Positions 459 through 28,996 of a stretch of DNA of 64,000 nt are shown piece after piece. The translations under genes and the position numbers were made by a program. Numbering within the stretch: the stretch's first letter is position 1; the number at the start of each line of letters is the position of its first letter. The notes under the pieces were generated by a model. That model was not told the DNA's origin. It saw nothing but the letters and a program-made list of their open reading frames with translations, and ran no database searches. This DNA is from a virus (taxonomy: Duplodnaviria > Caudoviricetes), in the IMG/VR virus record IMGVR_UViG_3300009168_000008, positions 456 through 64,455 of that record. One strand, written 5' to 3'.

Positions 459-781
459 AGGAGTAGGCCTCCGCGTAGGAAGTAGGGCAGGTCGCCGGGG
501 TCGAGCTCGGTCATCGCCGCCATCCACGTCCCGAACCCGCGCCGGAACATCGTCTCGGCCCCGATCCCGCGCTCACGGGCCACGTCGCGCACGATCCTCA
601 TCTCGCCGACCGGGACCTTGAGCCCCAAGCGGACATCGGGGGACGCCTCGGCGAGGATGTCGGTCCGGTTCCCGCCCATCGCCCGCGCCCGCCACCGAGC
701 CACCCGCGGCGACGCGTCGAGCGCGGCCAGCGCGGTACGCACGTAGGCCACCACCTCGTCGTCCTCAATCGGCAGTGGCAA
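455..781 (-). CDS. Hypothetical protein in the packaging operon
   Basis: 108-aa ORF overlapping both neighbours. Confidence 0.65.
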   Translation of the reverse strand: MPLPIEDDEVVAYVRTALAALDASPRVARWRARAMGGNRTDILAEASPDVRLGLKVPVGEMRIVRDVARERGIGAETMFRRGFGTWMAAMTELDPGDLPYFLRGGLLL

Positions 782-1229
782 GGTCCACGTCGATCACGTC
801 GGGCTCCATCGCCAAGAGCTCGCCGGCGGTGGAACTGATCATGCTGGCGACCCATGCGTCGATCTCGGCCGTGGTCGGAGAGTGGATGATGACCTCGGCC
901 GGGGCGTCGAGCCCGTAGAGCCGACAGTGCCGGTCGATGAGCTCCTTGGCGACCTTGACGGCGGCCAGTTGCTCTGGGTGGTTCTGATCGGTGGCCTTCT
1001 GCCAGACGCTCCTCAGGAGTCGCTCGATGCGGGCTCCGTTCTCGGCGCGGAGCCGCTGTCGCCCCTCCACGTCGTCCCAGGCCCGCGCGGAGAGCGCATC
1101 CTCGGCCGCGGTACGGGCCGCCATCGCATCGGGCAGCCCCAAGGCGTCGGCCACTTCGTCGTAGCCCGCCCCGGCCAGCCGCAGCGCCAGGGCGGCGTTG
1201 GCCGTGCGCGCCGGGCGCGGCTCAGGCAT
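765..1229 (-). CDS. HTH protein, probable terminase small subunit
   Basis: ALALRLAGAGYDEVADALG HTH plus LIDRHCRLYGLDAP, typical of actinophage TerS-like proteins; upstream of terL. Confidence 0.7.
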   Translation of the reverse strand: MPEPRPARTANAALALRLAGAGYDEVADALGLPDAMAARTAAEDALSARAWDDVEGRQRLRAENGARIERLLRSVWQKATDQNHPEQLAAVKVAKELIDRHCRLYGLDAPAEVIIHSPTTAEIDAWVASMISSTAGELLAMEPDVIDVDLATAD

Positions 1230-1437
1230 CACTCGCCTCGAGCGGAGGCAGGTACTCCTTCGACCCGCCCGTGGCGCGGTCGCGGGTGTTCTTCGGGTCG
1301 ACCTCCTTGGCCACACACCACCCCACGTAGTCGGAGAGGGACCAGTTGCGCCCCTTGGCCCGTTGCGCGGCCTCGCGGTAGTGGTCGAAGGGCAGTCGGA
1401 CCGTCGTGGCGATCCGCGGCCCCTTGTTCATCCGCAT
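1222..1437 (-). CDS. Ribbon-helix-helix DNA-binding protein (leaderless)
   Basis: TTVRLPFDHYREAAQRAKGRNWSLSDYV RHH pattern; TATGGT-N6-ATG. Confidence 0.65.
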   Translation of the reverse strand: MRMNKGPRIATTVRLPFDHYREAAQRAKGRNWSLSDYVGWCVAKEVDPKNTRDRATGGSKEYLPPLEASDA

Positions 1438-1826: not shown

Positions 1827-1905
1827 CCCGTATACGTTAACACTGAGATGCGGTATCCGTATACGCCTCAGAGTCCTCCTGAGTGCCCTTCCCGTATACG
1901 GGACT
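1827..1905. promoter_or_regulatory. Three CGTATACG palindromes overlapping the leftward promoter (putative operators)
   Basis: CGTATACG at 1829, 1858 and 1893 in a lower-GC intergenic segment. Confidence 0.55.
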
Positions 1906-2073
1906 GGTCGGAATCACCGGACCCGCAGCGGAGCGGAGAGCACCTTCCCCGGATAGGCCGAAACGGCCGCGGGGGACCACCCCTCCGGGGAGCTCACGAC
2001 CGACCGTTTCCCGGGCATTTCCCGGCCATCCGCCGGCCATAACCCCTGGTCACAGGCATATTTCGGAAATACG

Positions 2074-2102
2074 TTGCATTCCGTGAACCGTTCCGCTAGG
2101 TT
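2074..2102 (+). promoter_or_regulatory. SigA-type early promoter
   Basis: TTGCAT-N17-TAGGTT upstream of the first plus-strand gene. Confidence 0.7.
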
Positions 2103-2164
2103 ATCAATCGTCGAAGTCAAGCGATTCCCCGGAACCGGGGAACGGAACGAAAGGAACAACGACG

Positions 2165-2506
2165 ATGGCTACGGAAACTGAGATGAAGGCCCTGATCGCC
2201 CGGGCGGCGAAACTCCCCCGGATTGATCGTCCGGCGGTCGCCGGGAACTGGGATCACCCCGCCGGGGTGTTCGCCGATCCGGCGGCGGATGCGGTACGCA
2301 AGTTCGTCGCCGATGCGACGGCCGCTGGCCTGAAGCCCATCGAGATCATGAATCTCGGCGGCTCGGGTGAGACGGAACTGAAGCTCCACAAGAACGGGAA
2401 GAAGGCCAACCTCCTCCCCGGTCGGGCGTTCCAGTCCGCTGAGGATGTCCGCCGGGCGCTCCGCCCGGTGAAGGTCAAGGCCGAGAAGGTGGCCGCGGCC
2501 GCCTGA
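2165..2506 (+). CDS. Hypothetical early protein
   Basis: GAAAGGAAC RBS; 113 aa. Confidence 0.8.
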   Translation: MATETEMKALIARAAKLPRIDRPAVAGNWDHPAGVFADPAADAVRKFVADATAAGLKPIEIMNLGGSGETELKLHKNGKKANLLPGRAFQSAEDVRRALRPVKVKAEKVAAAA

Positions 2507-2625
2507 CGGTACGGGATGGCGTCCCGGGGATTCGTCCCCGGGCGTCGCCCGCTGGTCCCCGGCTTTCGGTCGGGTGCCGGCGTGCGATGCAGCCTGCGTC
2601 GCGGTTCGTGAAAGGAACCCACATC

Positions 2626-3181
2626 ATGTACACCCATCCCCTCGACGGGGACTTCCCGGAGGACCACGACCCCGTGCCTCCGACGGAGACCTACGACTTC
2701 GCCTTCGGGCTCGCCTGCTGGGTCGGTACGACCATCGTCCTCGACGAGGTGCCGGCGTGAACGACGAGTGCATCCACGGCCTGGGCATGGCCTCGGCCTG
2801 CTCGGTCTGCAATGGCCGGGTGGCGCGAGAGCGTCGCCTGGCGGCCGAGCCGAAGGTGATCCCGTTCTGGCTCTTCGAGCGGAAGCGCCGCTCACCGTGG
2901 CTCGACGTGCCGACCGCTGGTCGGGACCTGCGCCGGGTGGTCCGGTGATGCCGGAGTACCGACTCGGGCGAGGCCCGAGATGTGAGCTCGGCCAGGCTTG
3001 CCACCTGGCGCTGGGCTACCCCAACGGCACGTGGAAGCGGCTGCGTGAGCGGCTGGTGGATGCCGGCTGGACACCGATCGAGGTGCTAGCCGAGATGGAC
3101 GCACGGTCCATCGACCCGAAGTGGCGGTGGGAGACGGGCATCGATGCCCTGCTCGACCCGGAGTCGGGCTACTGGGGCTGA
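2626..3181 (+). CDS. Three coupled small hypothetical genes (2626-2760, 2757-2948, 2948-3181)
   Basis: RBS before the first; GTGA and TGATG overlaps. Confidence 0.65.
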
Positions 3182-3187
3182 GCCCCG

Positions 3188-3252
3188 GGACCTGAGCGCT
3201 GTCGTGGCGCTCAGGTCCACGACCCACGGAGAGTCCGTGGGCAGAAAGGAAC
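3188..3252 (+). ncRNA. Structured intergenic element family A, copy 1
   Basis: 12-bp stem, TGTCGTG loop, ACGAC, second hairpin, CAGAAAGGAAC. Confidence 0.6.
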
Positions 3253-3254
3253 CC

Positions 3255-3608
3255 ATGATCGGGTTGATCGGGCTGGCGCTGCTGGCCCCTGCGATGGACG
3301 TGCCGGCGGTTCCGGCACAGGTGGAGACCTGCGTCCCGAGTGACTACGCACCGTGTCTGGTGCGGATTCCCCGGGAGGACGGGAGCGATCTGATCGTCAT
3401 CCCGGCCAGCTGGGACTCGCCGTTCGATGCGGTCGCTGGCGACCAGATCGTCGTGCGATTCATCGGGAGCGATGGGATCGAGGAGGCCGACTTCCAGGCC
3501 AAGTGCGACGACATGGGCGGGCAGCTGAGCTGGTCGTCGATGTGGACCGGTGGCGAGATGGCCAACGGCGAGTTCGTCTGCGGGATGGAAGGCGGCGTGG
3601 ACTTCTGA
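3255..3608 (+). CDS. Hypothetical secreted/membrane protein
   Basis: Hydrophobic N-terminus MIGLIGLALLAPA; RBS. Confidence 0.7.
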   Translation: MIGLIGLALLAPAMDVPAVPAQVETCVPSDYAPCLVRIPREDGSDLIVIPASWDSPFDAVAGDQIVVRFIGSDGIEEADFQAKCDDMGGQLSWSSMWTGGEMANGEFVCGMEGGVDF

Positions 3609-3643
3609 CGGAACCCGAGCCGGGGCGGACTCCCCGGCAACCC

Positions 3644-3707
3644 GGCCCTCCGGGCGCGAGCTGGTGCTTTCACCGCCAGCGCGTCGGTTCGACTCCGACG
3701 AGGGCCA
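3644..3707 (+). tRNA. tRNA-Glu(UUC)-like element lacking a canonical D-arm
   Basis: Acceptor GGCCCTC/GAGGGCC+A, anticodon loop CTTTCAC, T-arm GTCGG-TTCGACT-CCGAC; only 9 nt where the D-arm should be. Confidence 0.6.
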
Positions 3708-3754
3708 CTGTCCGGCACACCCCGTGCCGGCGACGTGTGAAAGGAACACGCACG

Positions 3755-4353
3755 ATGGCGACAGAGAGGCTGGCCTGCGGGCACAGCGAGGACATCCGGC
3801 CGGGACTCCGGCTGTGGTGCTTCTACGACACCACCTTCGGGGTGGTGACCAGGGTGGGCAGCGACAGCTGGCACACCTTCGACACGGACGGGAGTCCGTA
3901 CAAGACGGCAGGCAACGACGCAGGCCTGTACGACGCAAGCCGACTGGCCTGCGTGCCGTGCGGGATTCGCGAGGTCGATGGCCGGGTCCGTGACCCGCTG
4001 GTCCTGACCGAGAGCTGGGAGCTGGTGCGATGAGCGAGACCAACAACCTCGCCGACACCGGCATCGAGCACTCCGCCACGGAGCGGATCACGCTCGAGTG
4101 GGACGACCCAGCACTGCTGCGGATCATCCGCATCCGGTACGTGGGCGACACGTGGTCCGGTCCGTTCGACCTGAGCTACTGCCTCGGGGTCGACACGCAG
4201 GGCCGGCAGGTGAGGGTCCGCATCCCCACCTACCAGGTGTTCGGTGGGCGGAACATCGTCCGCCAGCTGGTGGCCGACGCCCAGCGCGCAGGCGTGTACC
4301 TGCGGGGGCTGTGCGGAGGCCCGATCGATGACGTGCTCAGCGTCTGCTACTGA
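3755..4353 (+). CDS. Two hypothetical genes (3755-4033, 4030-4353)
   Basis: RBS; ATGA overlap. Confidence 0.7.
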
Positions 4354-4356
4354 GCC

Positions 4357-4421
4357 GGGAGGTGGGGCTGTCGTGGCCCCACAGCCCACGACCCGGCCAC
4401 CCTGGCTGGGCAGAAAGGAAC
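4357..4421 (+). ncRNA. Structured intergenic element family A, copy 2
   Basis: Same architecture as copy 1 with a different but complementary stem sequence. Confidence 0.6.
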
Positions 4422-4427
4422 ACTCCG

Positions 4428-4727
4428 ATGTTCGGAGACAGCCCCGCGGTCGAGATGCGTGAGCTCTCGACCCAAGAGACGTGGGACCTCAGCGAGATGA
4501 CCGAGCTGACCTGCGTCAACCACCCGACTGCGGTGTACCTGACCAAGAACCCCTGGTCACGGAACATCCACTTCATCCGCTTCCCGGCGGAGGCGGCGAG
4601 CCCCGAGTGGCGAGCCGAGCACGGGACCGGCATCGCCAACTGCGAGTGCCGCTGCCCGTTCGCCGACCTGCGGATCGTGGTCCGCCGGCAGCCCCCGACC
4701 GTCATCACCCTCGACGAGGTGCAGTGA
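4428..4727 (+). CDS. Hypothetical Cys-containing protein
   Basis: RBS; CxxH...CxC. Confidence 0.7.
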   Translation: MFGDSPAVEMRELSTQETWDLSEMTELTCVNHPTAVYLTKNPWSRNIHFIRFPAEAASPEWRAEHGTGIANCECRCPFADLRIVVRRQPPTVITLDEVQ

Positions 4728-4969
4728 TGGAGCGGAGGCAGGCCCTGGGCCTGGCGATCACGTCCCACCGGACGGCGCGCGGCATGGCCCGCAAGGTGCT
4801 CGCCGCCGAGGCGGGCATCTCGTACCCGTACCTCAGCGAGATCGAGAGCGGAGCCAAGGTGCCCACGATCGAGACGCTGTGGGCAATCGCCGAGGCGCTC
4901 GGCCGGGTGCCCAGCCAGCTGCTCACGACAGCTGAGCTGCTCGAAGCAGACGAGGACATCCTGCGATGA
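4727..4969 (+). CDS. XRE-family HTH regulator
   Basis: LAAEAGISYPYLSEIESGAKVPTIETLWAIAEALG. Confidence 0.9.
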   Translation: MERRQALGLAITSHRTARGMARKVLAAEAGISYPYLSEIESGAKVPTIETLWAIAEALGRVPSQLLTTAELLEADEDILR

Positions 4970-5546
4970 GCCTCCACTGCCAGTGCAACCAGGTGGCCTT
5001 CGACCACTCGGCCGGGTGCTGCCCCAAGGTGGGCACGATCCACGCCGAGCGAGCCGGAGTCGAGCTGTGGCTGTGCGTGGACTGCATCCTCAGCAGCGAC
5101 GTCAAGCTCGACCCGGAGGACGACGACGAGGAGGACGACGTGGACTGGGAGCTCGAGCGCAGCATCGAGCGATCCGAGATGGAGGCGGAGTGCGCACGAC
5201 TCAACCGGCTGAGGTGACCGAGGTCCGCATCCGCGGCACGGTCACCGTCAGGCCCAAGCGCAGCGTCATCCCCGCACTGCTCCTGCTGGGTGGGGTGGCG
5301 GCCATGCTCGGCTACGTCGTGGCCGGAGTCGAGAGACACCAGCCACCGCCGACGCTGTACGACAAGCTCGCCGCAGAGCAGGCCGAGGAACAGGCCACCG
5401 CCGAGCGCAACGCGCAGCTGTGCGACCACGCCACCGTCGCCGACATGATCGGCACGGAGTTCTACCACCACAACTGCGTCGAGCTCGGGCTCGGCACGAG
5501 CGAGCGAGCAGCCATCGCCCGCCAGATCGACGCCTCGCTGAGGTGA
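4966..5546 (+). CDS. Two hypothetical genes (4966-5217 acidic/Cys; 5214-5546 single TM)
   Basis: Coupled overlaps; hydrophobic segment in the second. Confidence 0.65.
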
Positions 5547-5551
5547 GCCCC

Positions 5552-5569
5552 GGCCCCCGCGCGGGGGCC
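5552..5569. repeat. 18-bp palindrome GGCCCCCGCGCGGGGGCC, copy 1 (intergenic)
   Basis: Exact; extends to a 24-bp palindrome at 5549-5572. Confidence 0.9.
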
Positions 5570-5680
5570 GGGATGGGACGCCTGCGAGGAGGCGCTGTAC
5601 GGCCCGTAGGAGGGCGACAGCGCCCGGGCGCGGGCGCGGGCGCGCCGGTAGCTCCCCGGCGTGCTGACAGGTGCTGACAG

Positions 5681-5749
5681 GGGGCTGGCCTCGGTGGCCG
5701 CGGGTTACGTGTTCCTTACCGCGAGCGGGTTCGATTCCCGCCAGCCCCA
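5681..5749 (+). ncRNA. tRNA-like element with non-canonical anticodon arm
   Basis: Acceptor GGGGCTG/CAGCCCC+A; T-arm GCGGG-TTCGATT-CCCGC; CGCGG/CCGCG stem with a 15-nt loop. Confidence 0.5.
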
Positions 5750-5758
5750 CGACAGGGA

Positions 5759-5808
5759 AATACCTGCGTGCGGTAGCTATCCCAGCTCCGCCCGGGTACC
5801 GTGTCAAT
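5759..5808 (+). promoter_or_regulatory. Promoter family B, copy 1
   Basis: AATACCTGCG box, TAGCTA-N17-TACCGT, then TCAAT. Confidence 0.55.
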
Positions 5809-5850
5809 GGATCGCCGCCAACGGGCAGCGACGAGGTGAAAGGAACACCG

Positions 5851-6188
5851 ATGGACGAGAACTGGGGTCCGAGCATTCGGGCCATCTGCCGGGCGACGAG
5901 CTACGAGGACTACCTCCGGCTCGTCGTCGAGGAGGCGGCTGACGAACTGGTCGCCGAGGTCGAGGCCGAGCTGGCGGCGCAGTGAGCGAGGAGTGGGAGG
6001 TGCTGCGCCAGCTGTGGCGGATCACCTCGTACCGAGACGGCTGCGTCTGGGGCACCGAGGACACCGGAACCCAGGTGTGGGTGCCGATGGGTTGCCACGG
6101 CAGCAAGGAGAGGCACGAGCTGTACGTGACGCTCGGGCCGGAGTGGGAGGACGTGCCCATGAGCAGGAAGATCCGCCGCAAGGCGTGA
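5851..6188 (+). CDS. Two small hypothetical genes (5851-5985, 5982-6188)
   Basis: RBS; GTGA overlap. Confidence 0.65.
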
Positions 6189-6191
6189 CCC

Positions 6192-6254
6192 GGACGGGTG
6201 GGCTGTCGTGGTCTGCCCGCCCACGACCACGGACCATCCGTGGCGGAAAGGAAC
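6192..6254 (+). ncRNA. Structured intergenic element family A, copy 3
   Basis: Same architecture; stem maintained with G-U pairs. Confidence 0.6.
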
Positions 6255-6256
6255 AG

Positions 6257-6726
6257 ATGGACGACGACGAGCTGAAGTGCGAGGTCTGCGACAAGCCGGC
6301 GACCCACGTCCTCAGCGGAACGTGGACCGGCAGCACCGCAGGTCCGCTCACGTACTGCATCGAGCACCTGGTGCCGATGGTCACCGACCTCGCCGAGCAC
6401 GGCGACGACGACTACGGCGACGGAGTGCTGCTGAGCTTCACGGTCGGGCGACTCGGATGAGCGCCGGCGCTGCGCTGCGCAAGCTGTACGCAGACTGGGA
6501 GGCGAACGGTGGTGTGGCCCCGGACACCTACGACGAGAACGTGGCCGTGGCCCTGGACCTCGGGCTCGACCCGCTCGATCGGGACGACCCCGAGCTGACC
6601 CGCATCTGGGAAGCAGCCCAGGACGGGCTGGATGACACCGAGGTGGCGGCGCTCCACGAGAGGGCACTGCGGGCCAAGGACAGTCGCGAGTTCGAGGCTG
6701 GGTGGGACGCGCCACCTGCCGGGTGA
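6257..6726 (+). CDS. Two small hypothetical genes (6257-6460, 6457-6726)
   Basis: RBS; ATGA overlap. Confidence 0.65.
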
Positions 6727-6737
6727 CCGGCCAGATG

Positions 6738-6786
6738 AATACCTGCGGGGAGTAGCTTTCCCAGCTCCCCCGCGCTACGCTTCAAT
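6738..6786 (+). promoter_or_regulatory. Promoter family B, copy 2
   Basis: AATACCTGCG box, TAGCTT-N17-TACGCT, then TCAAT. Confidence 0.55.
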
Positions 6787-6834
6787 TGTTCGCCGGGAAT
6801 TGGCCAGGTGAACGGTTCGTTGAAAGGAACCAGC

Positions 6835-7884
6835 ATGAGCGAATCATCGGGGCAGGGCTCTGCCCCCCGTTCGGAGGTCACGGCGGTCGACGCCTTCCCT
6901 CCCTGTGACATCAACCCGGCCCACGGGGCCGCGGCGTACGACGCCAAGACCACGATGGGCCCGTGGGGCAACCTCTGCCCGACGTGCTTCGAGAACTTCG
7001 GCTACGGCCTCGGCCTCGGGATCGGCCAGCGGCTGGTCCTGCGGGTGAAGCCATGAGCGGCGAGGTGCCGGCGGAGGTGCGGGCTGCGGCCTGCTACCTC
7101 GTCGGGGACTGGAGCGAGGAGCCGGAGTTCCCGGTCGTGGTGATGGGCAACAGCACCATCGGCCCGGGGCCGGAGTGGTCGTTCGGCTACGAGGACACGG
7201 CGTACGTGGCCCGGATGGCGGACGAGCCCGGCACCTACGTCGTCAGTTGGGACGACGAGGACGGGTACCTGGTGACCTGCTACATCAGCGAGGTCGCCAC
7301 CGATACCTACCGCGTGCAGATGCGCGAGGAGGGGGCGATGGTCGAGACGACCCGCTTCCGGATCGACACGCACGACACCGGCTACGTCGTGGTCGAGCTG
7401 CCGAGGGGGCAGTCATGAGCCGCCGCAAGACGGTCGACCTGATGCGGATGGCGAACGACCTGGAGCTGTTGAGCGCCCGGGTCGACGCCGTGTCCTCGGA
7501 CGTGAGGCATCTGACCGAGGACGTGGCCGAGCTGGCCGCCAAGACCGGGGAGTTCGCCCAGCAGGTGACCGACCTGCTCGCCGACATCCGTGAGCAGCAG
7601 CTGAGGGGGCAGCGATGAGCGGGCAGCGGCGCTTGCCGCGCGTCACCTACGGACCGCCCATCGTGTCGATGCCGGTCCTCGAGGTCCAGCCCGGAGACGA
7701 GTGGACCCAGGACGCCGACACCGTGATCGTGCGCCTGGTCGAGCACCTTCACGGCAAGGACGACGAGCCCGCCCGGGTCCGCCTCCACGGGGTCATCGTG
7801 CGCGGCGTGGGCCGCGGGACGAAGGTCCGCACGTGGAGCTTCGTCACCGACCAGCACCTGCAAATCGTGAGGAGGACGAGATGA
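6835..7884 (+). CDS. Four coupled hypothetical genes (6835-7056, 7053-7418, 7415-7618, 7615-7884)
   Basis: RBS, then ATGA overlaps. Confidence 0.7.
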
Positions 7885-8330
7885 GTGAGCTCTACGCCAT
7901 CGACCCCGATGGCGAGATCATCCCCGTGGCGAGCAGCTTCGAGGGCATCAAGGCCGGGTGCGGGGGAGCGACGATCGACTTCATCCGCCCGCACGGAGGG
8001 TGCGGGTTCTACATCGACGACGAGGGGATGCTGACCAACCAGCAGCTGAACGTGGTCGCCTCGATCATGGCAGCGATGGCGCTGTACGGGCCTGCCGTGC
8101 TGACCGGGCCGGACCCGGACGACGAGGGCAACACCCTGCCCCCGAGCGCCGATGCGCTGGCCTTCGCCCAAGAGGTTGGCAAGCGGTGGCGGGCGGTGGT
8201 CAACGACGCCAAGCGCAAGGGCCAGGACCCGTACGTGACGGCCAACGCCGAGACCATCCCGCCGAGCCGGATCATCAGCTTCGATGACCCGGACGAGTTC
8301 ATGCGCCACCTGTTCGGGGAGCGTGAGTGA
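7881..8330 (+). CDS. DUF3846-like protein
   Basis: YIDDEGMLTNQQLNVVAS...LYGPAVLTG..DDEG. Confidence 0.6.
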   Translation: MSELYAIDPDGEIIPVASSFEGIKAGCGGATIDFIRPHGGCGFYIDDEGMLTNQQLNVVASIMAAMALYGPAVLTGPDPDDEGNTLPPSADALAFAQEVGKRWRAVVNDAKRKGQDPYVTANAETIPPSRIISFDDPDEFMRHLFGERE

Positions 8331-10777: not shown

Positions 10778-11358
10778 ATGAGCTCGAGACCGCGCTGGCC
10801 TTGGCCGAGGAATGGCGGCGGTGGTCGAGGGAGGTGGACTTCCCGTTCCGCCCCGACCACTGCATCAACGGCACGCGCGTGGTGACGCGGGCGCTGCACG
10901 CGATGGAGGTGTACGCCCGGCCGGTGAGCGTGGAGTTCTCGCTGTTCAACCAGGTCGCCTATCAGCTGTGGAAGCAGGGGGTGGAGATCGCCGAGTGGCC
11001 GCCCCACGCCTGGTCGCTCGGCGTCAACCGCGGTGCGCCGGCGAGCCGCGACCCGACGAAGTGGAACGGGCACCTGGTCTGCGAGGGGGTCGGATGGACG
11101 CTCGACATCTCGGCCGGGCAGTTCGACCGCAGCCCGCGCATCGTGGTCGACGGGCCGCAGATGTTCGACATGGTGCTGCCAGCCGACGGCGCGCAGCAGT
11201 GGCTGAGCGACGAGCGACAGCAGGTCTGGGTGATGTCGCGCAGCGGCGACAACCGCTGGCGCACCGCACCGGGGTGGAAGCGGATGCACGACACCGAGGT
11301 GCGAGAGATCGTCCGACGGACCCTCCGTCGGTTGAGCAGAAAGGAACATGATGGATGA
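10774..11358 (+). CDS. Putative papain/transglutaminase-fold protein
   Basis: DHC...WNGHLV...LDISAGQF, i.e. Cys-His-Asp order. Confidence 0.45.
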   Translation: MNELETALALAEEWRRWSREVDFPFRPDHCINGTRVVTRALHAMEVYARPVSVEFSLFNQVAYQLWKQGVEIAEWPPHAWSLGVNRGAPASRDPTKWNGHLVCEGVGWTLDISAGQFDRSPRIVVDGPQMFDMVLPADGAQQWLSDERQQVWVMSRSGDNRWRTAPGWKRMHDTEVREIVRRTLRRLSRKEHDG

Positions 11359-20292: not shown

Positions 20293-21269
20293 CCGACCAC
20301 TGGCGCATGTTCAGCGAGTTCGCCCGCTACGAGAAGGCGGTCGGCGGTCCGAGCGCCCACCTGTGCATGGTCGCCGGGATGAGCCGCGGGCTGCCGGTCG
20401 ACGAGCAGGTGTGGCGGGCCGGGTGCTACGCAGCGGTCTACAACACGGGCTCGGGGATGGCGCTGTGGAGTCACCTGAGCCGGGCCGAGGTGCTGGCGAT
20501 GGACGAGGGCGAGTTGAGCAACGGGCTCGCCGACTGCTGGGAGGGCCTGCCGATGCACCGCCACCGCCGCGCCATCCGCACCCCCGAGAAGATGGCGCGC
20601 TACCTCCGCTCGTACGCCCTCGCCTCACGGGACTGGCCCGACCGCGACTGGTGGGTGGGCTCGGCGACCCCGGCCCGCTACGAGGACGCCTGGCGTGAGG
20701 TCAACGCCGTCTACGGGGTCGGGCGCTACATCGCCATCCGCATCCTCGAGCTGTTCTCCCGGTTCGGCGCGGGCACCGCCCTGCACGACATCCGGGCGCG
20801 CGACGCGTGGTCCCCGCGGCGCACGCTGTCGCTGCTCTGGCCGCAGCACACCCGGGTGCTCAGCGATGACCAGTCGTTGCGCGGGGCGGCCACCGCCGAG
20901 TCGATCGCCAACACCACGCTGGCCCGGGTGCACGAGGAGTACGGCGTGTGGCTCAACCACTACGAGTTGCAGGTGTTCACGTGCGAGTACCACCAGTCGA
21001 TCGACAACAAGCGGCAGTTCCCCGGGCGGAGCATCGACGGCGAGGGGCAGGCGCTGCGCAAGGTCGAGCCGTACTGGGGCACGGAGGTCACCGCGGCGGG
21101 GTGGGCGGTGCGGCGCGAACTGTTCCCGGAGGTGTCGCTCGGCGAGGTGAACGGCTGGACCACCCGCGACGAGCTCATGCCGGTGGCCGCCGAGCGGGGC
21201 TACACGTGGAGCGACCTCGTCTACGACTACAACGCCACGACCGACCTGTCTGTTCCGGTGCGGCGATGA
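20289..21269 (+). CDS. aGPT-pyrophosphorylase clade 2 / amino acid:DNA transferase-like (HhH-glycosylase fold)
   Basis: GVGRY, ELQVFTCEY, FPGRSID; genomic context. Confidence 0.7.
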   Translation: MTDHWRMFSEFARYEKAVGGPSAHLCMVAGMSRGLPVDEQVWRAGCYAAVYNTGSGMALWSHLSRAEVLAMDEGELSNGLADCWEGLPMHRHRRAIRTPEKMARYLRSYALASRDWPDRDWWVGSATPARYEDAWREVNAVYGVGRYIAIRILELFSRFGAGTALHDIRARDAWSPRRTLSLLWPQHTRVLSDDQSLRGAATAESIANTTLARVHEEYGVWLNHYELQVFTCEYHQSIDNKRQFPGRSIDGEGQALRKVEPYWGTEVTAAGWAVRRELFPEVSLGEVNGWTTRDELMPVAAERGYTWSDLVYDYNATTDLSVPVRR

Positions 21270-21736: not shown

Positions 21737-22197
21737 CGGACGTGCGGCCAGCGGGCGATGAGGTTGTCCACCTTGGTCATCCGCCCCTTCCACCACGGCT
21801 CGTTCTGCAACGGCTTGCCGAGGCGGTCGGCGCGCTCGGCCATGCGCTGGCGAGCGACCTCGACCGGCGTGTCGAGGTAGATCACTGTGAGCTCGGGGAC
21901 AGCGGCGAAGAACTTGCCGTTGGCCAGGCGGTCGCCCTCGCCGAGCACCTCGTCGACCTGCGTGGTGTAGCGGGTGCGCCATATCCACTCGATCACGGTG
22001 GGCTGGATGCTCATGCTCAGCGCGTCGGTCCCGCCAAAGCCGTCGCGCCGCCGACCCAGCGCCACCAGCCAGCCGTAGTCCGTGTGGGCGAAGGGCTTGT
22101 CGCGCTCGACCCCCGACAGCAGCAGGCTGTCCACGGCCCCGTCGGTCATCGTCGTCTTGCCGCAGCCGGGCAGCCCGATCACGTAGGTCAGGCGAAT
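21673..22197 (-). CDS. P-loop nucleotide kinase (Ploopntkinase3-like); start uncertain
   Basis: GLPGCGKTT, GTDALSM, EGDRL, WWKGRMTK. Confidence 0.75.
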   Translation of the reverse strand: MRLTYVIGLPGCGKTTMTDGAVDSLLLSGVERDKPFAHTDYGWLVALGRRRDGFGGTDALSMSIQPTVIEWIWRTRYTTQVDEVLGEGDRLANGKFFAAVPELTVIYLDTPVEVARQRMAERADRLGKPLQNEPWWKGRMTKVDNLIARWPHVRYDGTLPAAELAGMLASHLAK

Positions 22198-23195
22198 CGC
22201 TGGACCTTCTTCTTCACCTTGAACCCGGCAGCCCGGGCGTCCTCAGCTTCCGTCGCGTGCAGCGCGGCGCGCCGGGCCTCCTGGCTGGGGTCGGCGCAGC
22301 ACTTGCGCATCCCGGTCTTGGCGTAGGTGACGAGGCTGTAGCGGAAGCCGCCGGGGTGGGCCATGCGCAGCCCGGTGACGCCGTGGACGACCGACTGCCC
22401 GTCGAAGATGGTGATGCTGCCGTGGGGCACGCCGAGGTAGGTGTCGTAGTCGGCGAGGTGGAGCAGCCCACCCTCGACCTGCCGCCGGCACACGAGCATG
22501 GCCGACCAGCTGGTCGAGATGTTGGCCTGGTCGCGGTGGTACGGGAGGCTCACCGTCTTGTTGATGATCCCGCTCGACCACGGCGTGCCGTTGATCAGCC
22601 AGGCCGGGGCGATGTTGTCGCTGACGCGCTGGGCGGTGAGGTCGTGGACGTCGCTGGCGTGGGTGCGAAAGACGTGCTCGGCAATCTCGCAGAAGCGGCC
22701 GATCTGGTCCATCGCCTTCGGGTACTCGCTGTTGAAGATGCTCCGCGAGCAGCCGTACCGCCGCCGCATCGGGACCGGGGGCTGGTAGCCGAAGGTGCGG
22801 TGCGTCACCGCCATCCCGTTGAGGCGCGACGTGGTGCTGGCGTTGTTGAACACCTGGTCGTCCCACTTCACCTGGCTCAGGGATGCGGCGAGGTCGGTGG
22901 CGAGGTCGGTGGCGCAGACGATGTGCACCGCGACGACCTTGCCCGTCTCGGCGTCCGTGATGGCGACGTTGCCCCGGATGATGCGGCTGTCCGGGCCGGG
23001 GTCGGGGGCGTGCGGCTTGATCAGCCGGTTGCCGCAGTTCGGGCACAGCCGGCGCGGGAAGTACGGCACCATCGCCCCACAGGACAGGATGCGCCGCTCC
23101 CAGCGGTCGGTGACGCCCTCGGTGTACGCGCAGGGGACCAGCGGCTCGCCCCGGGGCAGCGTCAGCCGGGGGATGGCGCTCTGCTCACGCTGCAC
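22188..23195 (-). CDS. TET/JBP-family 2OG-Fe(II) dioxygenase
   Basis: HRD...GGLL...FDG..HGVT...RYSLVTY (HxD/H/R); GTG start overlapping the ParB stop. Confidence 0.8.
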   Translation of the reverse strand: MQREQSAIPRLTLPRGEPLVPCAYTEGVTDRWERRILSCGAMVPYFPRRLCPNCGNRLIKPHAPDPGPDSRIIRGNVAITDAETGKVVAVHIVCATDLATDLAASLSQVKWDDQVFNNASTTSRLNGMAVTHRTFGYQPPVPMRRRYGCSRSIFNSEYPKAMDQIGRFCEIAEHVFRTHASDVHDLTAQRVSDNIAPAWLINGTPWSSGIINKTVSLPYHRDQANISTSWSAMLVCRRQVEGGLLHLADYDTYLGVPHGSITIFDGQSVVHGVTGLRMAHPGGFRYSLVTYAKTGMRKCCADPSQEARRAALHATEAEDARAAGFKVKKKVQRFA

Positions 23196-23854
23196 TACGG
23201 CTCGACGAGCTTCAGCCCGGGCTCTTCGTCGGCATCTTCCAGCGCCTCGACCACCAGCCGCTCCACGACGTCGGCGTTGGTGTCCATGCCCCACAGGGCG
23301 CGCAGGCGAGCGAGCCCTTGGGCGACGGGCTCGTAGCGGGCGAACTCGTACGGCAGGATCAGGCTGCGGATGTCGAGCTCGTTGTAGGCGTCGATGCGAT
23401 CCTCGGGGATCACGCCCTGGCGGATGCCACCGACGATGGCGTCGCTCTCCACCGATTGCAGGAGCAGCTCGTAGGCGGCGCGGTCGTAGCCGGTGCCGTC
23501 GAGGCCCTCGCTCTCGACCAGTCCCTTCAACAGCCCGAACAGTGCCTCGTCGTCGTAGAAGGCGAGGTCGCTGGTGCGGTTGTCGGCCAGCAGGATGCGC
23601 GTCGCCGTCTCGTCGTCAGCGTCGACCCAGAACCCGGGGATCGTGTCGTGCCCCTCTTCGACCATCACCCGGTACCGAGTGTTCCCGGCGATGACGGCTC
23701 CGGTCGAGCGCTGGACGAGGATGGCCCCGAAGAAGCCGTTGCGGGCGATGCTCTCGCCCACGGACTGGTCGTCGCCGCGCCGGGGGTTCTCCGGGTGCTG
23801 GTGAATCTTGTCGACCGGGATGGCCGGGTCGAACTCCTGGTCCACGATGTTCAT
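23195..23854 (-). CDS. ParB/Srx-like protein
   Basis: HPENPRRGD..SI..NGF..ILV..VIAGNTR..LADNRTSD. Confidence 0.85.
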   Translation of the reverse strand: MNIVDQEFDPAIPVDKIHQHPENPRRGDDQSVGESIARNGFFGAILVQRSTGAVIAGNTRYRVMVEEGHDTIPGFWVDADDETATRILLADNRTSDLAFYDDEALFGLLKGLVESEGLDGTGYDRAAYELLLQSVESDAIVGGIRQGVIPEDRIDAYNELDIRSLILPYEFARYEPVAQGLARLRALWGMDTNADVVERLVVEALEDADEEPGLKLVEP

Positions 23855-27313: not shown

Positions 27314-28996
27314 TCAGCGTGTTGGAGGCAGCAGCAAGACGACGGTGGTGGTCGTGGTCGGGCCAGGTGGGAACGGTCCGTCCGGGTTGGCGCAGGCACT
27401 CGACTCAGGGGGGTAGCTGACGAGCACAGGGCCGGCGGTCGGGTTGACCTCGTAGGTCAGGAAGATGCCTTCACGGAGGAAGGCGTCGCTCGGGTCTTGC
27501 ACCCAGAAGCCGTCGCTGTTGAGGTTCCACCCCGGCACGTTGGCCACGGAGCCGTCGGGATTGACATCCGTGCCGGGGTAGAGCACATCCACCGTCGCGC
27601 CGGGCTGGTACACGACCGACTCGGTGCCGACCACGATGGCGTTGACGTCGCGGAACGTCAGGGTGCCCACCTGCCCGGCCAGGCTCGGGAAGCCGGGCGT
27701 CTGGAAGGTGATGCGGATGGTCGGCACCTCGTTCACGCAGACCGTGCCCGCGGCTCCGAAGGTGAACGTCTCAGGGAGCGTCGTGGAGGTCGACGTGGTC
27801 GTGCTCGAGGTGGTGGTCGTCTGCACCTCGGACGTCGGGCTCACCGTCGTGGAGGTCGTCGTTCCCGGCACCGTCGTGGAGGTCGTTGAGGCCGCCGTGG
27901 TCGTCGTCGCACCCGTCCCCGTAGTAGTGGGTGCGACCGTCGTCGTCGTCGTGGACGGGGCGGTGCTCGTCGTGCTCGTCGAGCTCGTCGAGGTGCTGGT
28001 CGACGTTGGCGGGGACGTGGTCGTGGTGGACGTACCCGGCACCGTCGAGGTGGTCGTGGTCGTCCCGCCGGTCGGGTTGGTCGTGCACGTCTCTCCGATC
28101 GGACACTGCGGCACTGTGGTCGAGGTCGAGCTGCTCGTAGTCGAGGTTGTAGACGAGGTCGTAGGCGCGGTGGTGGAAGTGGTCGTGCTGGGCGCGGTAG
28201 TGGAGGACGTCGTTGGCGATGTCGTGGTTGTACCCGGAACCGTCGTGGTTGTGGTCGACGGGACGCACGGCAGGGTCGTCGTCGTGGGCGACGGATACCA
28301 GTTCAGCGACTCCCACCAGGACGGCTCCTCCGGCACGCACGGCTCGGTGGTCGTGGTCGTCGGCGCGACGGTCGTGGTGGTCGGCGGGGTCAGGAGGCAC
28401 TCGGCGGCGGATGGCTCGGGCTGGCCGGTGTCGAAGGCGATCACCCGGGAGCGGCCCTGGGCGTCGGCGAAGAACGAGCCGATCAGCCCGTCCCAGCCGG
28501 GGATGGCGTTGACCGACACGCTGATCGGGTTCTGCCCGGTCTGCAACCGCTCGTCATCTCCCGGCGTGCCGACGAACTTGCACACGAACACCTTCTTGGG
28601 GGCCGTAGTGGTCGTTGTCGTGCCCGCAGTGGTCGTTGTGGGCCCGCTGGTGGTCGTTGGGGCCGCGGTAGTGGTCGGTGCGGCTGTCGTGGTGGGCGCG
28701 GCCGTGGTGGTCGTGTAGGCGTGCGTGGTGGTCGTGTAGGCCGGGTGCGTCGTGGTCGGCGCGGCGGTTGTCGTCGGGACCGTCTGCGGGTTGGTCACGA
28801 CCACGGTCGTCGTCGGCGCGGCGGTCGTCGGAGCAGCGGTCGTCGGAGCGGGAGTGGTCGGCACCGTCGTCGGGCCGCACTCGCTCTCGAGGTAGTCGTC
28901 CGGAGCGCACGTCCACGCCGTGGTCCTCTCGGCGAGCGTGATCGGCACCGCCATTGCAATGACAGCAGCACCGATAGCGATCAGACGAGATTTCAC
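27314..28996 (-). CDS. Secreted Thr/Pro-rich mucin-like protein
   Basis: Signal peptide, (A)PTTT repeats, two Cys-flanked globular domains, C-terminal LPPTR. Confidence 0.8.
   Translation of the reverse strand: MKSRLIAIGAAVIAMAVPITLAERTTAWTCAPDDYLESECGPTTVPTTPAPTTAAPTTAAPTTTVVVTNPQTVPTTTAAPTTTHPAYTTTTHAYTTTTAAPTTTAAPTTTAAPTTTSGPTTTTAGTTTTTTAPKKVFVCKFVGTPGDDERLQTGQNPISVSVNAIPGWDGLIGSFFADAQGRSRVIAFDTGQPEPSAAECLLTPPTTTTVAPTTTTTEPCVPEEPSWWESLNWYPSPTTTTLPCVPSTTTTTVPGTTTTSPTTSSTTAPSTTTSTTAPTTSSTTSTTSSSTSTTVPQCPIGETCTTNPTGGTTTTTSTVPGTSTTTTSPPTSTSTSTSSTSTTSTAPSTTTTTVAPTTTGTGATTTTAASTTSTTVPGTTTSTTVSPTSEVQTTTTSSTTTSTSTTLPETFTFGAAGTVCVNEVPTIRITFQTPGFPSLAGQVGTLTFRDVNAIVVGTESVVYQPGATVDVLYPGTDVNPDGSVANVPGWNLNSDGFWVQDPSDAFLREGIFLTYEVNPTAGPVLVSYPPESSACANPDGPFPPGPTTTTTVVLLLPPTR

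What the first reader, a model, noticed from the sequence alone, without database searches (positions are those of the whole stretch)
3188..6254. Three covarying two-state RNA elements between a stop codon and the next RBS (family A)
Seen at 3188, 4357 and 6192: a 12-bp stem whose sequence differs in each copy but stays largely complementary (with G-U pairs, a tandem G.A and one A.C mismatch), an invariant TGTCGTG loop, invariant ACGAC, a second variable 7-8-bp hairpin, then C(A/G)GAAAGGAAC and ATG. The invariant parts form GTCGTGG-N9-CCACGAC with exactly 9-nt spacing, an alternative hairpin that excludes the first stem. Each copy begins 3-6 nt after the upstream stop codon. Inference: a translation-coupled riboswitch-like or processing element, or a DNA operator/cassette-shuffling site overlaid on an RNA structure. 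I do not recognise it as a known family.
Basis: partly seen in the sequence, partly recalled or inferred. Interest (0 to 1): 0.78.

Follow-up and report, generated by a model that had tools for sequence, protein, structure and literature searches.

The report
tRNA-like hairpin modules before phage genes
Three structured RNA units between early genes of an uncultured high-GC phage belong to a wider family that resembles the acceptor/T-arm half of a tRNA and probably marks where long phage messages are cut and translated.

Summary
Three copies (3188, 4357, 6192) have a covarying 12-bp stem, a TGTCGTG loop, ACGAC, a second hairpin, GAAAGGAAC and ATG. There is no Rfam match.

A second IMG/VR scan plus covariance models found relatives. 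There are 39 copies at E<=0.001 in this phage and at least five related uncultured phage records, and none in 706 kb of other loci. Covariation is strong: 94% of cells are paired and 20 of 20 pairs change on both sides. G-U outnumbers A-C 33 to 12 on the sense strand.

Family-wide features:
- a hairpin of about 31 nt (12 bp plus a 6-7-nt loop with a U-C-R core)
- first pair G-C
- A-C directly after the stem
- a second hairpin
- the phage's fixed Shine-Dalgarno motif and a start codon

At some equivalent positions the first hairpin is a fuller tRNA-like element with a canonical T-arm.

The GTCGTGG-N9-CCACGAC alternative hairpin occurs only in this phage's 3 copies (3 of 39). That counts against the two-state and DNA-operator readings.

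Best reading, inferred and untested: a tRNA-minihelix mimic that acts as a processing signal (RNase P, RNase Z or E), followed by a 5' hairpin and a strong ribosome site.

The parts
3188..3218 (+). Copy 1, hairpin H1: 12-bp stem plus the 7-nt loop TGTCGTG (31 nt), minihelix-like
   Evidence: R2 80.5 bits for 3185-3257
3219..3223 (+). Copy 1 tail ACGAC. A-C directly after H1 is the family-wide invariant.
   Evidence: A in 38 of 39, C in 39 of 39
3223..3241 (+). Copy 1, hairpin H2 (8 bp, loop GAG)
3244..3257 (+). Copy 1 Shine-Dalgarno/start-associated motif GAAAGGAAC and the ATG of a 117-aa gene
4357..4387 (+). Copy 2, hairpin H1 (12 positions with tandem A.G/G.A, loop TGTCGTG)
   Evidence: 74.2 bits for 4354-4430
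4388..4410 (+). Copy 2 tail ACGAC and hairpin H2 (8 bp with one G.U, loop CCC)
4413..4430 (+). Copy 2 GAAAGGAAC and the ATG of a 99-aa gene
6192..6222 (+). Copy 3, hairpin H1 (12 positions: one A.C, three G.U; loop TGTCGTG)
   Evidence: 67.3 bits for 6189-6259
6223..6243 (+). Copy 3 tail ACGAC and hairpin H2 (7 bp, loop CCA)
6246..6259 (+). Copy 3 GAAAGGAAC and the ATG of a 67-aa gene
3641..3757 (+). Same module with a fuller tRNA-like element in place of H1. It has an acceptor-like stem and a T-arm (GGTTCGACTCC), then A-C, hairpin 3714-3733, GAAAGGAAC 3739-3747 and ATG 3755.
   Evidence: Rfam tRNA-Sec 20 bits, below threshold; R2 21.2 bits, E 0.015
5680..5753 (+). Second tRNA-like element (acceptor stem plus T-arm GGTTCGATTCC), followed directly by ACGAC (CCACGAC at 5747-5753), as in the three copies
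   Evidence: (27.3 bits, below the threshold of 47); ARAGORN calls no tRNA
11309..11353 (+). Partial module: an H2-like hairpin (CCGACGGA-CCC-TCCGTCGG) plus CAGAAAGGAAC plus ATG, without H1

Best explanation
The three sites belong to a family of sense-strand RNA modules that sit directly in front of a subset of early genes. The family occurs in this phage and in a clade of related, uncultured high-GC phages.

Each module has five parts:
(i) Hairpin H1, about 31 nt (12 bp plus a 6-7-nt loop with a U-C-R core). Its first pair is G-C.
(ii) An invariant A-C right after the stem, often ACGA(C).
(iii) A second 7-8-bp hairpin, H2.
(iv) The phage's fixed Shine-Dalgarno motif GAAAGGAAC.
(v) The start codon.

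H1 has the geometry and end features of a tRNA acceptor/T-arm minihelix: 7+5 = 12 bp, a 7-nt loop, G1-C72, A73 and C74. At some equivalent positions a fuller tRNA-like element with a canonical T-arm takes its place.

Most likely mechanism (inferred, not shown): host tRNA-maturation nucleases read H1 as a tRNA-like substrate. RNase P would cut at its 5' edge. RNase Z, or the C-preferring actinobacterial RNase E, would cut in the A-C tail. This would punctuate the polycistronic early transcript. H2 would then be the 5'-terminal protective and insulating hairpin that keeps the strong ribosome site open.

The loop-tail complementarity (GUCGUGG/CCACGAC) is a peculiarity of this phage's three copies, not the working principle.

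Shown: the family, its covariation, its strand, its geometry, its link to gene starts, and the tRNA-like variants. Inferred: which nucleases act, where they cut, and the role of H2.
For: Family: an IMG/VR scan for CACGACC-N16-23-GAAAGGAAC gave 106 loci. Model R1 hit several of them strongly, down to E 1e-12. Model R2 finds 39 copies at E<=0.001 in the window plus 4 related phage records and locus L318 (a fifth record, G001, was left out as a near-copy of G003). It finds 5-14 copies per record, 42 of 43 co-oriented within their record, clustered within 5-13 kb. It finds 0 in 706 kb of other phage and metagenome loci.

The records are true relatives. They share early-region proteins with the window at 27-74% identity.

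Structure: 94.2% of 722 cells are paired, 20 of 20 pairs change on both sides (246 cells), and 0 of 500 shuffles reach the observed covariation score, share of paired cells or count of doubly changed cells.

Strand: G.U/U.G 33 against A.C/C.A 12. All three window copies fold better on the + strand.

Geometry: H1 is 31 nt in 16 of 39 copies and 29-31 nt in 25 of 39. The first pair is G-C in 33 of 39. The next bases are A in 38 of 39 and C in 39 of 39. The loop reads N-U(23 of 31)-C(22 of 31)-R(29 of 31).

tRNA link: the T-arm motif GGTTCRANYCC occurs 8 times in the family loci against 1.27 expected. Five of these are sense-oriented between genes, counting once the site that two overlapping loci share. 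At least four of the five sit in an H1 position or are followed by ACGAC (window 3686 and 5728, L261:106, L278:1547). CCACGAC directly after the acceptor-like stem at 5747 is a motif with 0.28 copies per kb.

Starts: 38 of 39 copies end in ATG or GTG.

Background from papers (passages read):
- RNase P cleaves acceptor/T stem-loop model hairpins. The 12-bp stack is thought to be its measuring device. G+1/C+72, N73 and C74 are contacts (PMC11143913; PMC11221534).
- tRNA-like t-elements and acceptor-like stem-loops mark mRNA ends in plant mitochondria (PMC1920247).
- Mycobacterial RNase E cuts 5' of cytidines, and cleavage sites are enriched between genes (PMC10641625, abstract and section headings).
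Against: There are no RNA-end data. The one RNA library laid gave contigs only at 2120-2339 and 6421-6602, not at the elements.

None of the elements is a tRNA by ARAGORN or by Rfam thresholds.

The three window loops (UGUCGUG, closing pair C-G) are poor T-loops: there is no U54/A58 equivalent.

The tail is A-C-G/U, not A-C-C-A, so only part of the RCCA contact could form. The base before H1 is mostly C, not the U that E. coli and B. subtilis RNase P prefer (recalled).

The length peak, the A-C tail and the U-C-R loop are partly favoured by how the copies were found: a seed pattern containing CACGACC, then models built from 12+7 hairpins. Copies within a genome and across relatives are also not independent.

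The invariance of the whole loop within this phage is not explained by the processing model.
Confidence: 0.42

Rival explanations
1. The hairpins are passive mRNA structure. H1 (with the weak upstream hairpin H0) would block 3' exonucleases or pause or weakly terminate RNA polymerase. H2 would keep the ribosome site free. No tRNA-type endonuclease would be involved.
For: The stems are GC-rich and stable: -17.7 to -25.8 kcal/mol for H1. Many other intergenic gaps of the same operon also carry hairpins just before GAAAGGAAC. A small hairpin ends within 4 nt of H1 in 27 of 39 copies.
Against: It does not explain the near-invariant G-C first pair, the A-C after the stem, the U-C-R loop core, the narrow length peak, or the replacement of H1 by T-arm-bearing elements. 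No U-tract follows any copy. The H0 excess is weak: 27 of 39 against 198 of 400 at random positions.
Confidence: 0.2
2. The module is a binding site for a phage or host RNA-binding factor, or for RNA polymerase itself. It would act like lambda nut or HK022 put (processive antitermination), or as a translational operator for the downstream gene.
For: There are two adjacent hairpins of about 55-65 nt with covarying stems and fixed unpaired bases, in early operons. This is like the roughly 70-nt two-stem put RNAs (PMC9378689, passages read). The loop is lineage-specific: UGUCGUG here, CUCGUAC in G003, GUCGAA in G005, as expected for co-evolving partners. Each window copy precedes a strongly structured gap.
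Against: There are 5-14 copies per record within 5-13 kb, far more than a processive antiterminator needs. Copies are tied to gene starts, not to promoters. No RNA-binding protein was recognised among the neighbouring genes. There is no Rfam match.
Confidence: 0.18
3. It is a DNA operator. GTCGTGG-N9-CCACGAC would be a dimer-binding site, like ESAS in Cluster K phages or stoperators in L5. The binding protein could be the XRE-type protein encoded at 4727-4969. The site would overlie an unrelated hairpin.
For: The three window copies carry a perfect 7-bp inverted repeat with fixed spacing. An HTH_3 protein is encoded between copies 2 and 3 (E 3e-13). The authors of the ESAS paper favoured DNA-binding sites for ESAS (PMC3203893, passage read).
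Against: The inverted repeat is absent from the 36 homologues, while the hairpin, the A-C tail and the motif persist. The fixed 9-nt spacing follows automatically from the 12-bp stem. Stems covary and favour G.U on the sense strand. Half-site centres are 16 bp apart, on opposite helix faces (inference). Better operator candidates exist: three CGTATACG palindromes lie beside the early promoter.
Confidence: 0.07
4. It is a translation-coupled two-state switch. A ribosome stopping 3-6 nt upstream would melt stem 1, so that the alternative hairpin forms and changes processing or expression.
For: The alternative 7-bp hairpin is real in all 3 window copies (-9.8 to -11.2 kcal/mol). The stop codons lie 3-6 nt upstream.
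Against: The alternative helix is not conserved: 3 of 39 copies have 7 loop-tail pairs and 19 of 39 have none. The gap from stop codon to H1 ranges from 1 to 53 nt. The ribosome site is unpaired in both states. Stem 1 is 8-15 kcal/mol more stable than the alternative.
Confidence: 0.05
5. It is a mobile or recombination site that marks the boundaries of gene cassettes.
For: Gene order around the elements is mosaic among relatives. The elements sit between small genes of unknown function.
Against: No recombinase or integrase was recognised in the genes scanned. Only an Erf-like annealing protein was found. Stems differ between copies, so there is no shared crossover sequence. None of the listed contig break points or loose ends in related populations falls at an element (88 loose ends were not shown).
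Confidence: 0.03

Closest known systems
Start-associated sequences (SAS) and extended SAS (ESAS) of Cluster K mycobacteriophages, and the SAS/ESAS-like motifs of Microbacterium Cluster EF phages (PMC3203893, PMC7302621; passages read)
   Same: There is a very well conserved motif containing the ribosome site a few bases before the start codon of a subset of non-structural genes. Here it is GAAAGGAAC: 18 copies, 17 with a start codon. The Cluster EF consensus GGGAAAGGACCCC is similar in kind. Part of these sites carry an extra inverted-repeat element immediately upstream. The consensus is lineage-specific. The element tends to stay with the downstream gene family. Function is unknown in the literature.
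   Different: ESAS arms are 17 bp, conserved in sequence, and their departures do not support RNA pairing, so the authors favour DNA sites. Here the arms vary in sequence, covary strongly, prefer G.U on the sense strand, have a fixed 12-bp plus 7-nt geometry and are followed by A-C. There is no sequence similarity to the Cluster K consensus.
t-elements and acceptor-like stem-loops of plant mitochondria, and the tRNA punctuation principle (PMC1920247; abstract and passages read)
   Same: These are tRNA-like structures with the GGTTCRANYCC T-arm motif, or bare acceptor-like stem-loops, lying between coding regions and coinciding with mRNA ends. They are proposed signals for RNase P and RNase Z.
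   Different: That system is organellar and its ends were mapped by experiment. Here the setting is a bacterial virus, no ends are mapped, most copies are bare minihelices, and each is coupled to a second hairpin and a fixed ribosome site.
RNase P minihelix (acceptor/T stem-loop) model substrates (PMC11143913, PMC11221534; passages read)
   Same: A 12-bp helix is capped by a 7-nt loop, with a G+1/C+72 first pair, a purine at 73 and C74.
   Different: The natural tail is A-C-G/U-A, not A-C-C-A. The loops are only partly T-loop-like. Cleavage is untested.
HK022 put RNAs (PMC9378689; passages read)
   Same: These are cis-acting early-operon RNAs of about 70 nt made of two stem-loops. The copies are related in sequence but keep the fold.
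   Different: There are two put copies per phage, just downstream of promoters, and their stems carry bulges and a triplex. Here there are many copies tied to gene starts, and no similarity was detected.

Membership tests
tRNA gene | Full cloverleaf with D arm and anticodon arm, recognised by tRNA finders | tested here: not met
   ARAGORN finds 0 genes in the window and 0 in 10 related loci. Rfam tRNA-clan matches at 5680-5749 and 3644-3706 score 27.3 and 20 bits against a gathering score of 47.
tRNA-like minihelix / t-element (RNase P or Z signal) | Helix of 12 stacked pairs capped by a 7-nt loop | tested here: met
   3 of 3 window copies have it. H1 is 31 nt in 16 of 39 family copies and 29-31 nt in 25 of 39. 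The search models favour this length.
tRNA-like minihelix / t-element (RNase P or Z signal) | G1-C72 first pair and an unpaired purine at 73 | tested here: met
   G-C in 33 of 39; A after the stem in 38 of 39
tRNA-like minihelix / t-element (RNase P or Z signal) | T-loop (T-arm motif GGTTCRANYCC) | tested here: inconclusive
   The motif is present in the fuller tRNA-like variants (8 matches against 1.27 expected). The bare hairpins keep only a U-C-R core. The window loops UGUCGUG do not fit.
tRNA-like minihelix / t-element (RNase P or Z signal) | 3' CCA after the discriminator base | tested here: not met
   C74 is present in 39 of 39, but position 75 is G in 23 of 39 or otherwise not C
tRNA-like minihelix / t-element (RNase P or Z signal) | Cleavage by RNase P or RNase Z at the helix ends | not testable with these tools
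   Only contigs of one RNA library could be laid, and they do not cover the elements
SAS/ESAS of actinobacteriophages | Highly conserved motif overlapping the ribosome site before a subset of starts | tested here: met
   There are 18 exact GAAAGGAAC in the window, 17 with a start codon within 12 nt. Across the family loci the counts are 58 exact and 57 with a start.
SAS/ESAS of actinobacteriophages | Upstream inverted repeat with conserved arms and a variable spacer, not supporting RNA pairing | tested here: not met
   The arms vary and covary. The conserved 7-bp repeat is confined to this phage.
Two-state riboswitch-like element | Conserved, mutually exclusive alternative pairing | tested here: not met
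   3 of 39 copies have the 7-pair alternative helix; 19 of 39 have no loop-tail pair
Intrinsic terminator | GC-rich hairpin followed by a U-tract | tested here: not met
   ACGACC follows H1 and GAAAGG follows H2. The terminator scan lists none at the elements.
Any Rfam 15 family (including ribozymes and put-like RNAs) | Covariance-model match | tested here: not met
   No hit at gathering scores in the window. Nothing at the elements but one chance-level antisense match at E up to 10 in 2000-7000: sX13, 18.8 bits against a gathering score of 50, E 2.7, on the - strand over copy 1. No hit at E<=0.1 in three related loci.

The most novel reading that the evidence does not exclude
A clade of soil and sediment actinophages punctuates its early polycistronic transcripts with tRNA-minihelix mimics and degenerate tRNA-like elements. 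Host RNase P and RNase Z (or RNase E) would excise these. Each cistron would be released with a 5' hairpin and an optimised ribosome site. This would be a natural counterpart of mitochondrial tRNA punctuation and of synthetic tRNA or ribozyme insulators. It might also explain the puzzling SAS/ESAS-type repeats of actinobacteriophages.
Probability: 0.35. Interest if true: 0.8.

Novelty: new variant of a known kind. Interest (0 to 1): 0.62.

Why it matters
Repeats associated with gene starts have been described in actinobacteriophages since 2011, and in the papers read here their function is still given as unknown. This family is a version with clear RNA covariation and a concrete, testable mechanism.

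If host tRNA-processing enzymes cut these modules, that would show a phage using the tRNA-maturation machinery to shape operon expression. It would extend tRNA punctuation from organelles to viruses of bacteria. It would also provide compact natural insulator parts (processing signal, 5' hairpin, strong ribosome site) for high-GC hosts.

At the least, this is a candidate new RNA family, with 39 or more members and a working covariance model.

Tried and rejected
Searches that found no relatives or no known family:
- Megablast and blastn of 2000-8000 against 50,697 phage records gave no match.
- Blastn of two relatives' loci gave only short protein-level traces or nothing.
- An exact IMG/VR scan for TGTCGTGG-N9-CCACGAC gave 51 loci. 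None had the 12-bp stem (best 9 of 12 pairs), so all are chance matches.
- The genome-contig scan for CTGTCGTGG-N9-CCACGACC gave 107 loci. The best had 10 of 12 pairs in a single case, consistent with chance.
- Protein-based searches for relatives with the 322-aa, 117-aa and 99-aa proteins found none in IMG/VR.
- An alignment of 13 homologues brought in 87 loci with at most 38% identity. They carry no element. Some have repeats of their own.

Other checks:
- The PHROG label 'Rnase E' for the 155-aa protein at 765-1232(-) was rejected as a lead to a phage ribonuclease. It has no Pfam, NCBIfam or PDB support. Its ESM-Atlas neighbours are small-terminase-like or HTH proteins.
- An H-type pseudoknot between the loop and the adjacent tail was rejected on geometry: there is no linker across a 12-bp helix (inference).
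- The sigma-70 promoter scan found nothing at the elements, and they contain no TANNNT.

Sequencing runs and laid contigs:
- One soil run holds a 5168-nt contig spanning 2932-6900 with 19 differences. None of the 40 listed differences lies in an element (8 were not shown), so this gave no orthologous variation.
- The RNA library gave contigs at 2120-2339 and 6421-6602 only. This shows neither transcription of the elements nor its absence.
- Runs with small shares were not used.

Full report
**Setting.** The window is almost all of a 64,455-bp IMG/VR virus record with direct terminal repeats and 69% G+C. It has a tailed-phage structural arm on the minus strand, including tail fibre and tail proteins. 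A long arm of small plus-strand genes starts after a promoter-like TTGCAT-17 nt-TAGGTT at 2074-2102. Most neighbouring proteins have no family. One is an XRE-type HTH protein at 4727-4969.

The pattern GTCGTGG-N9-CCACGAC is found exactly three times, and 0 of 100 shuffles reach the observed count at up to 2 mismatches. A covariance model of the three copies (R1), run with filters off, finds only these three in the window: 81-96 bits, with the next hit at 16.9 bits. Among the three copies, 9 of 20 pairs change on both sides. The plus strand folds better than the minus strand in 3 of 3 copies.

One correction is needed. GAAAGGAAC is not part of the element proper. It is a general, hyper-conserved ribosome-site motif of this phage, with 18 exact copies, 17 of them followed by a start codon within 12 nt. 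It pairs with the usual actinobacterial 16S 3' end over GAAAGGA only (the 16S end is recalled, not taken from a call).

**No known family.** Rfam gives nothing at gathering scores. At E up to 10 in 2000-7000, the only match overlapping an element is a chance-level antisense one to sX13 (18.8 bits against a gathering score of 50, E 2.7). Two sub-threshold tRNA-clan matches also appeared, at 5680-5749 and 3644-3706. ARAGORN calls no tRNA.

**Finding relatives.** Exact scans for the loop-plus-tail pattern in IMG/VR (51 loci) and in 185,579 species genomes (107 loci) gave only chance matches without the stem. Relatives found through a 322-aa protein were at most 38% identical and carry no element.

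The breakthrough was a scan for the tail plus the ribosome motif, CACGACC-N16-23-GAAAGGAAC. It returned 106 loci. Model R1 then hit several of them at E down to 1e-12, with multiple copies per contig. A second model (R2, from 24 copies) finds 9, 14, 8, 7 and 5 copies in five virus records. Of these 43 copies, 42 are co-oriented within their record, and they cluster within 5-13 kb. Pooling the window and the non-redundant loci gives 39 copies at E<=0.001. I left out record G001 as a near-copy of G003. One or two of the 39 are doubtful; L261:7513 has no motif and no start codon. R2 finds nothing at E<=0.01 in 706 kb of the other high-GC loci.

These records are real relatives of the window phage. 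They share early-region proteins with the window at 27-74% identity, for example the AAA ATPase at 43-53%. None resembles a cultured phage at the DNA level.

**What is conserved.**
- On the 39-copy alignment, 94.2% of 722 cells pair. All 20 pairs show changes on both sides (246 cells). None of 500 shuffles reaches the observed covariation score, share of paired cells or count of doubly changed cells, and sliding the partners destroys the signal. The alignment was fitted to the model, which favours it.
- G.U outnumbers A.C 33 to 12 on the sense strand.
- H1 is 31 nt in 16 of 39 copies and 29-31 nt in 25 of 39.
- The first pair of H1 is G-C in 33 of 39.
- The two bases after the stem are A (38 of 39) and C (39 of 39), followed by G-A in 23-24 of 39.
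- The loop reads N-U-C-R-N-N, with U in 23, C in 22 and R in 29 of the 31 copies that have letters there.
- The motif GAAAGGAAC and a start codon follow.
- The loop sequence is lineage-specific: UGUCGUG here and once in L261, CUCGUAC in G003, and GUCGAA, UUCGCC or CUCGAUA in G005.

The module travels with the downstream gene. It precedes the AAA-ATPase orthologue in two relatives, and it follows the orthologue of the 107-aa gene in G004, as copy 2 does here.

**What is not conserved.**
- The 7-bp alternative hairpin exists only in the three window copies. Nineteen of 39 copies have no loop-tail pair at all. L261:2721 keeps the UGUCGUG loop but has the tail ACU.
- The distance from the upstream stop codon ranges from 1 to 53 nt in the 22 of 39 copies that could be scored.

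Both the two-state reading and the DNA-operator reading rest on features peculiar to one phage.

**The tRNA connection.** Twelve pairs, a 7-nt loop, a G-C first pair, then A and C: this is the layout of the acceptor/T-arm half of a tRNA (7+5 pairs, T-loop, G1-C72, A73, C74). The same module occurs with a fuller tRNA-like element in the place of H1.
- In the window, 3641-3757 has an acceptor-like stem, a T-arm GGTTCGACTCC, then A-C, a hairpin, the motif and ATG (R2 21 bits).
- Also in the window, 5680-5749 has a T-arm GGTTCGATTCC whose acceptor-like stem is followed directly by ACGAC. CCACGAC occurs at only 0.28 per kb.
- Relatives have the same arrangement at L278:1535, L305:342 and L261:96.
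- The T-arm consensus GGTTCRANYCC is found 8 times in the family loci against 1.27 expected.
- Several bare hairpins read GGG-NUCGNNN-CCC, close to a T-arm. The window's own loops are the least T-loop-like.

**Mechanism.** I take the module to be a processing-and-translation unit. The review passages I read state three things: RNase P cleaves acceptor/T stem-loop hairpins, the 12-bp stack is thought to act as its measuring device, and G+1/C+72, N73 and C74 are contact points (PMC11143913; PMC11221534). In plant mitochondria, tRNA-like t-elements and acceptor-like stem-loops coincide with mRNA ends and are proposed RNase P and RNase Z signals (PMC1920247). [quoted passage not shown]

Cutting at the 5' edge of H1, in the A-C tail, or both would split the early polycistronic RNA. 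H2 would then sit at the new 5' end, directly before an unpaired strong ribosome site. All of this is inference; no RNA ends are available. Points against it are the lack of CCA, the weak T-loop likeness of the window loops, the C rather than U before H1, and the ascertainment bias of the seed pattern and the models. A small upstream hairpin is only weakly enriched: 27 of 39 against 198 of 400 controls.

**Comparison with what is known.** The nearest described things are the SAS and ESAS repeats of Cluster K mycobacteriophages and Cluster EF Microbacterium phages. The SAS part matches in kind. The ESAS part differs, because ESAS arms are conserved in sequence and do not support RNA pairing. 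My searches of the open literature found no functional study of ESAS and no paper on tRNA-like intercistronic elements in phages. These are searches of the held library only, and supplementary files were not seen.

**Verdict.** This is a real, new RNA family with a plausible and testable tRNA-mimicry mechanism. I rate it a new variant of known kinds, with interest 0.62.

Noticed in passing
window 1829-1900 and 2074-2102: Three copies of the palindrome CGTATACG (1829-1836, 1858-1865, 1893-1900) lie in the divergent gap upstream of a promoter-like TTGCAT-17 nt-TAGGTT. They are likely operators of the early promoter.
   Followed up: no
window 5756-5789 and 6737-6768: A second intergenic repeat (AATACCTGCG..GTAGCTwTCCCAGCTCC) occurs twice, each time upstream of a GAAAGGAAC start. 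Model R2 aligns the 6742-6837 copy weakly (18.6 bits) as a diverged H1.
   Followed up: partly
window 20553-21269, 22188-22928(-), 23195-23854(-): There is an amino acid:DNA transferase-like protein (Pfam ADDT, just below the cut-off), a Tet/JBP-type dioxygenase (a PHROG labels it queuine tRNA-ribosyltransferase) and a ParB-like protein. Together they suggest DNA hypermodification.
   Followed up: no
window 27779-28872: This is a long, imperfectly repeated stretch rich in GTCGTGG/GTCGTC units, with open frames on both strands. It holds at least 3 further TGTCGTG matches, at 28220, 28616 and 28685; GTCGTGG positions were not listed.
   Followed up: no
window 765-1232 (-): A 155-aa protein matches PHROG 645, labelled 'Rnase E'. 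It looks instead like a small terminase or HTH protein, so the label appears unreliable.
   Followed up: yes
L078 3560-4060: An unrelated metagenome contig carries a CRISPR-like array: a repeat of about 28 nt (GTCCGCCCCCCAGGCGCAGGGACGACGG) with a period of about 61 nt and at least 8 units.
   Followed up: no
L061 300, 3561, 5193, 8755 and 3330-3500: A distant relative (36% identity in the 322-aa protein) has its own intergenic repeat, the palindrome TATCCAACTTGGATA. In three of its four copies it follows a TGA within a few bases. It also has five direct ATAGAACCG repeats within about 170 nt.
   Followed up: no
L261 (four copies, e.g. 571, 887, 1430, 3670): In this relative a third small hairpin, GGGCC-N3-5-GGCCC, directly precedes H1, which makes a three-hairpin module. 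Across the whole family this upstream hairpin is only weakly enriched.
   Followed up: partly
window 2120-2339 and 6421-6602: Contigs from one soil RNA-seq library match two early genes at 99-100% identity. One contig begins 18 nt downstream of the predicted -10 element. DNA carry-over cannot be excluded.
   Followed up: no
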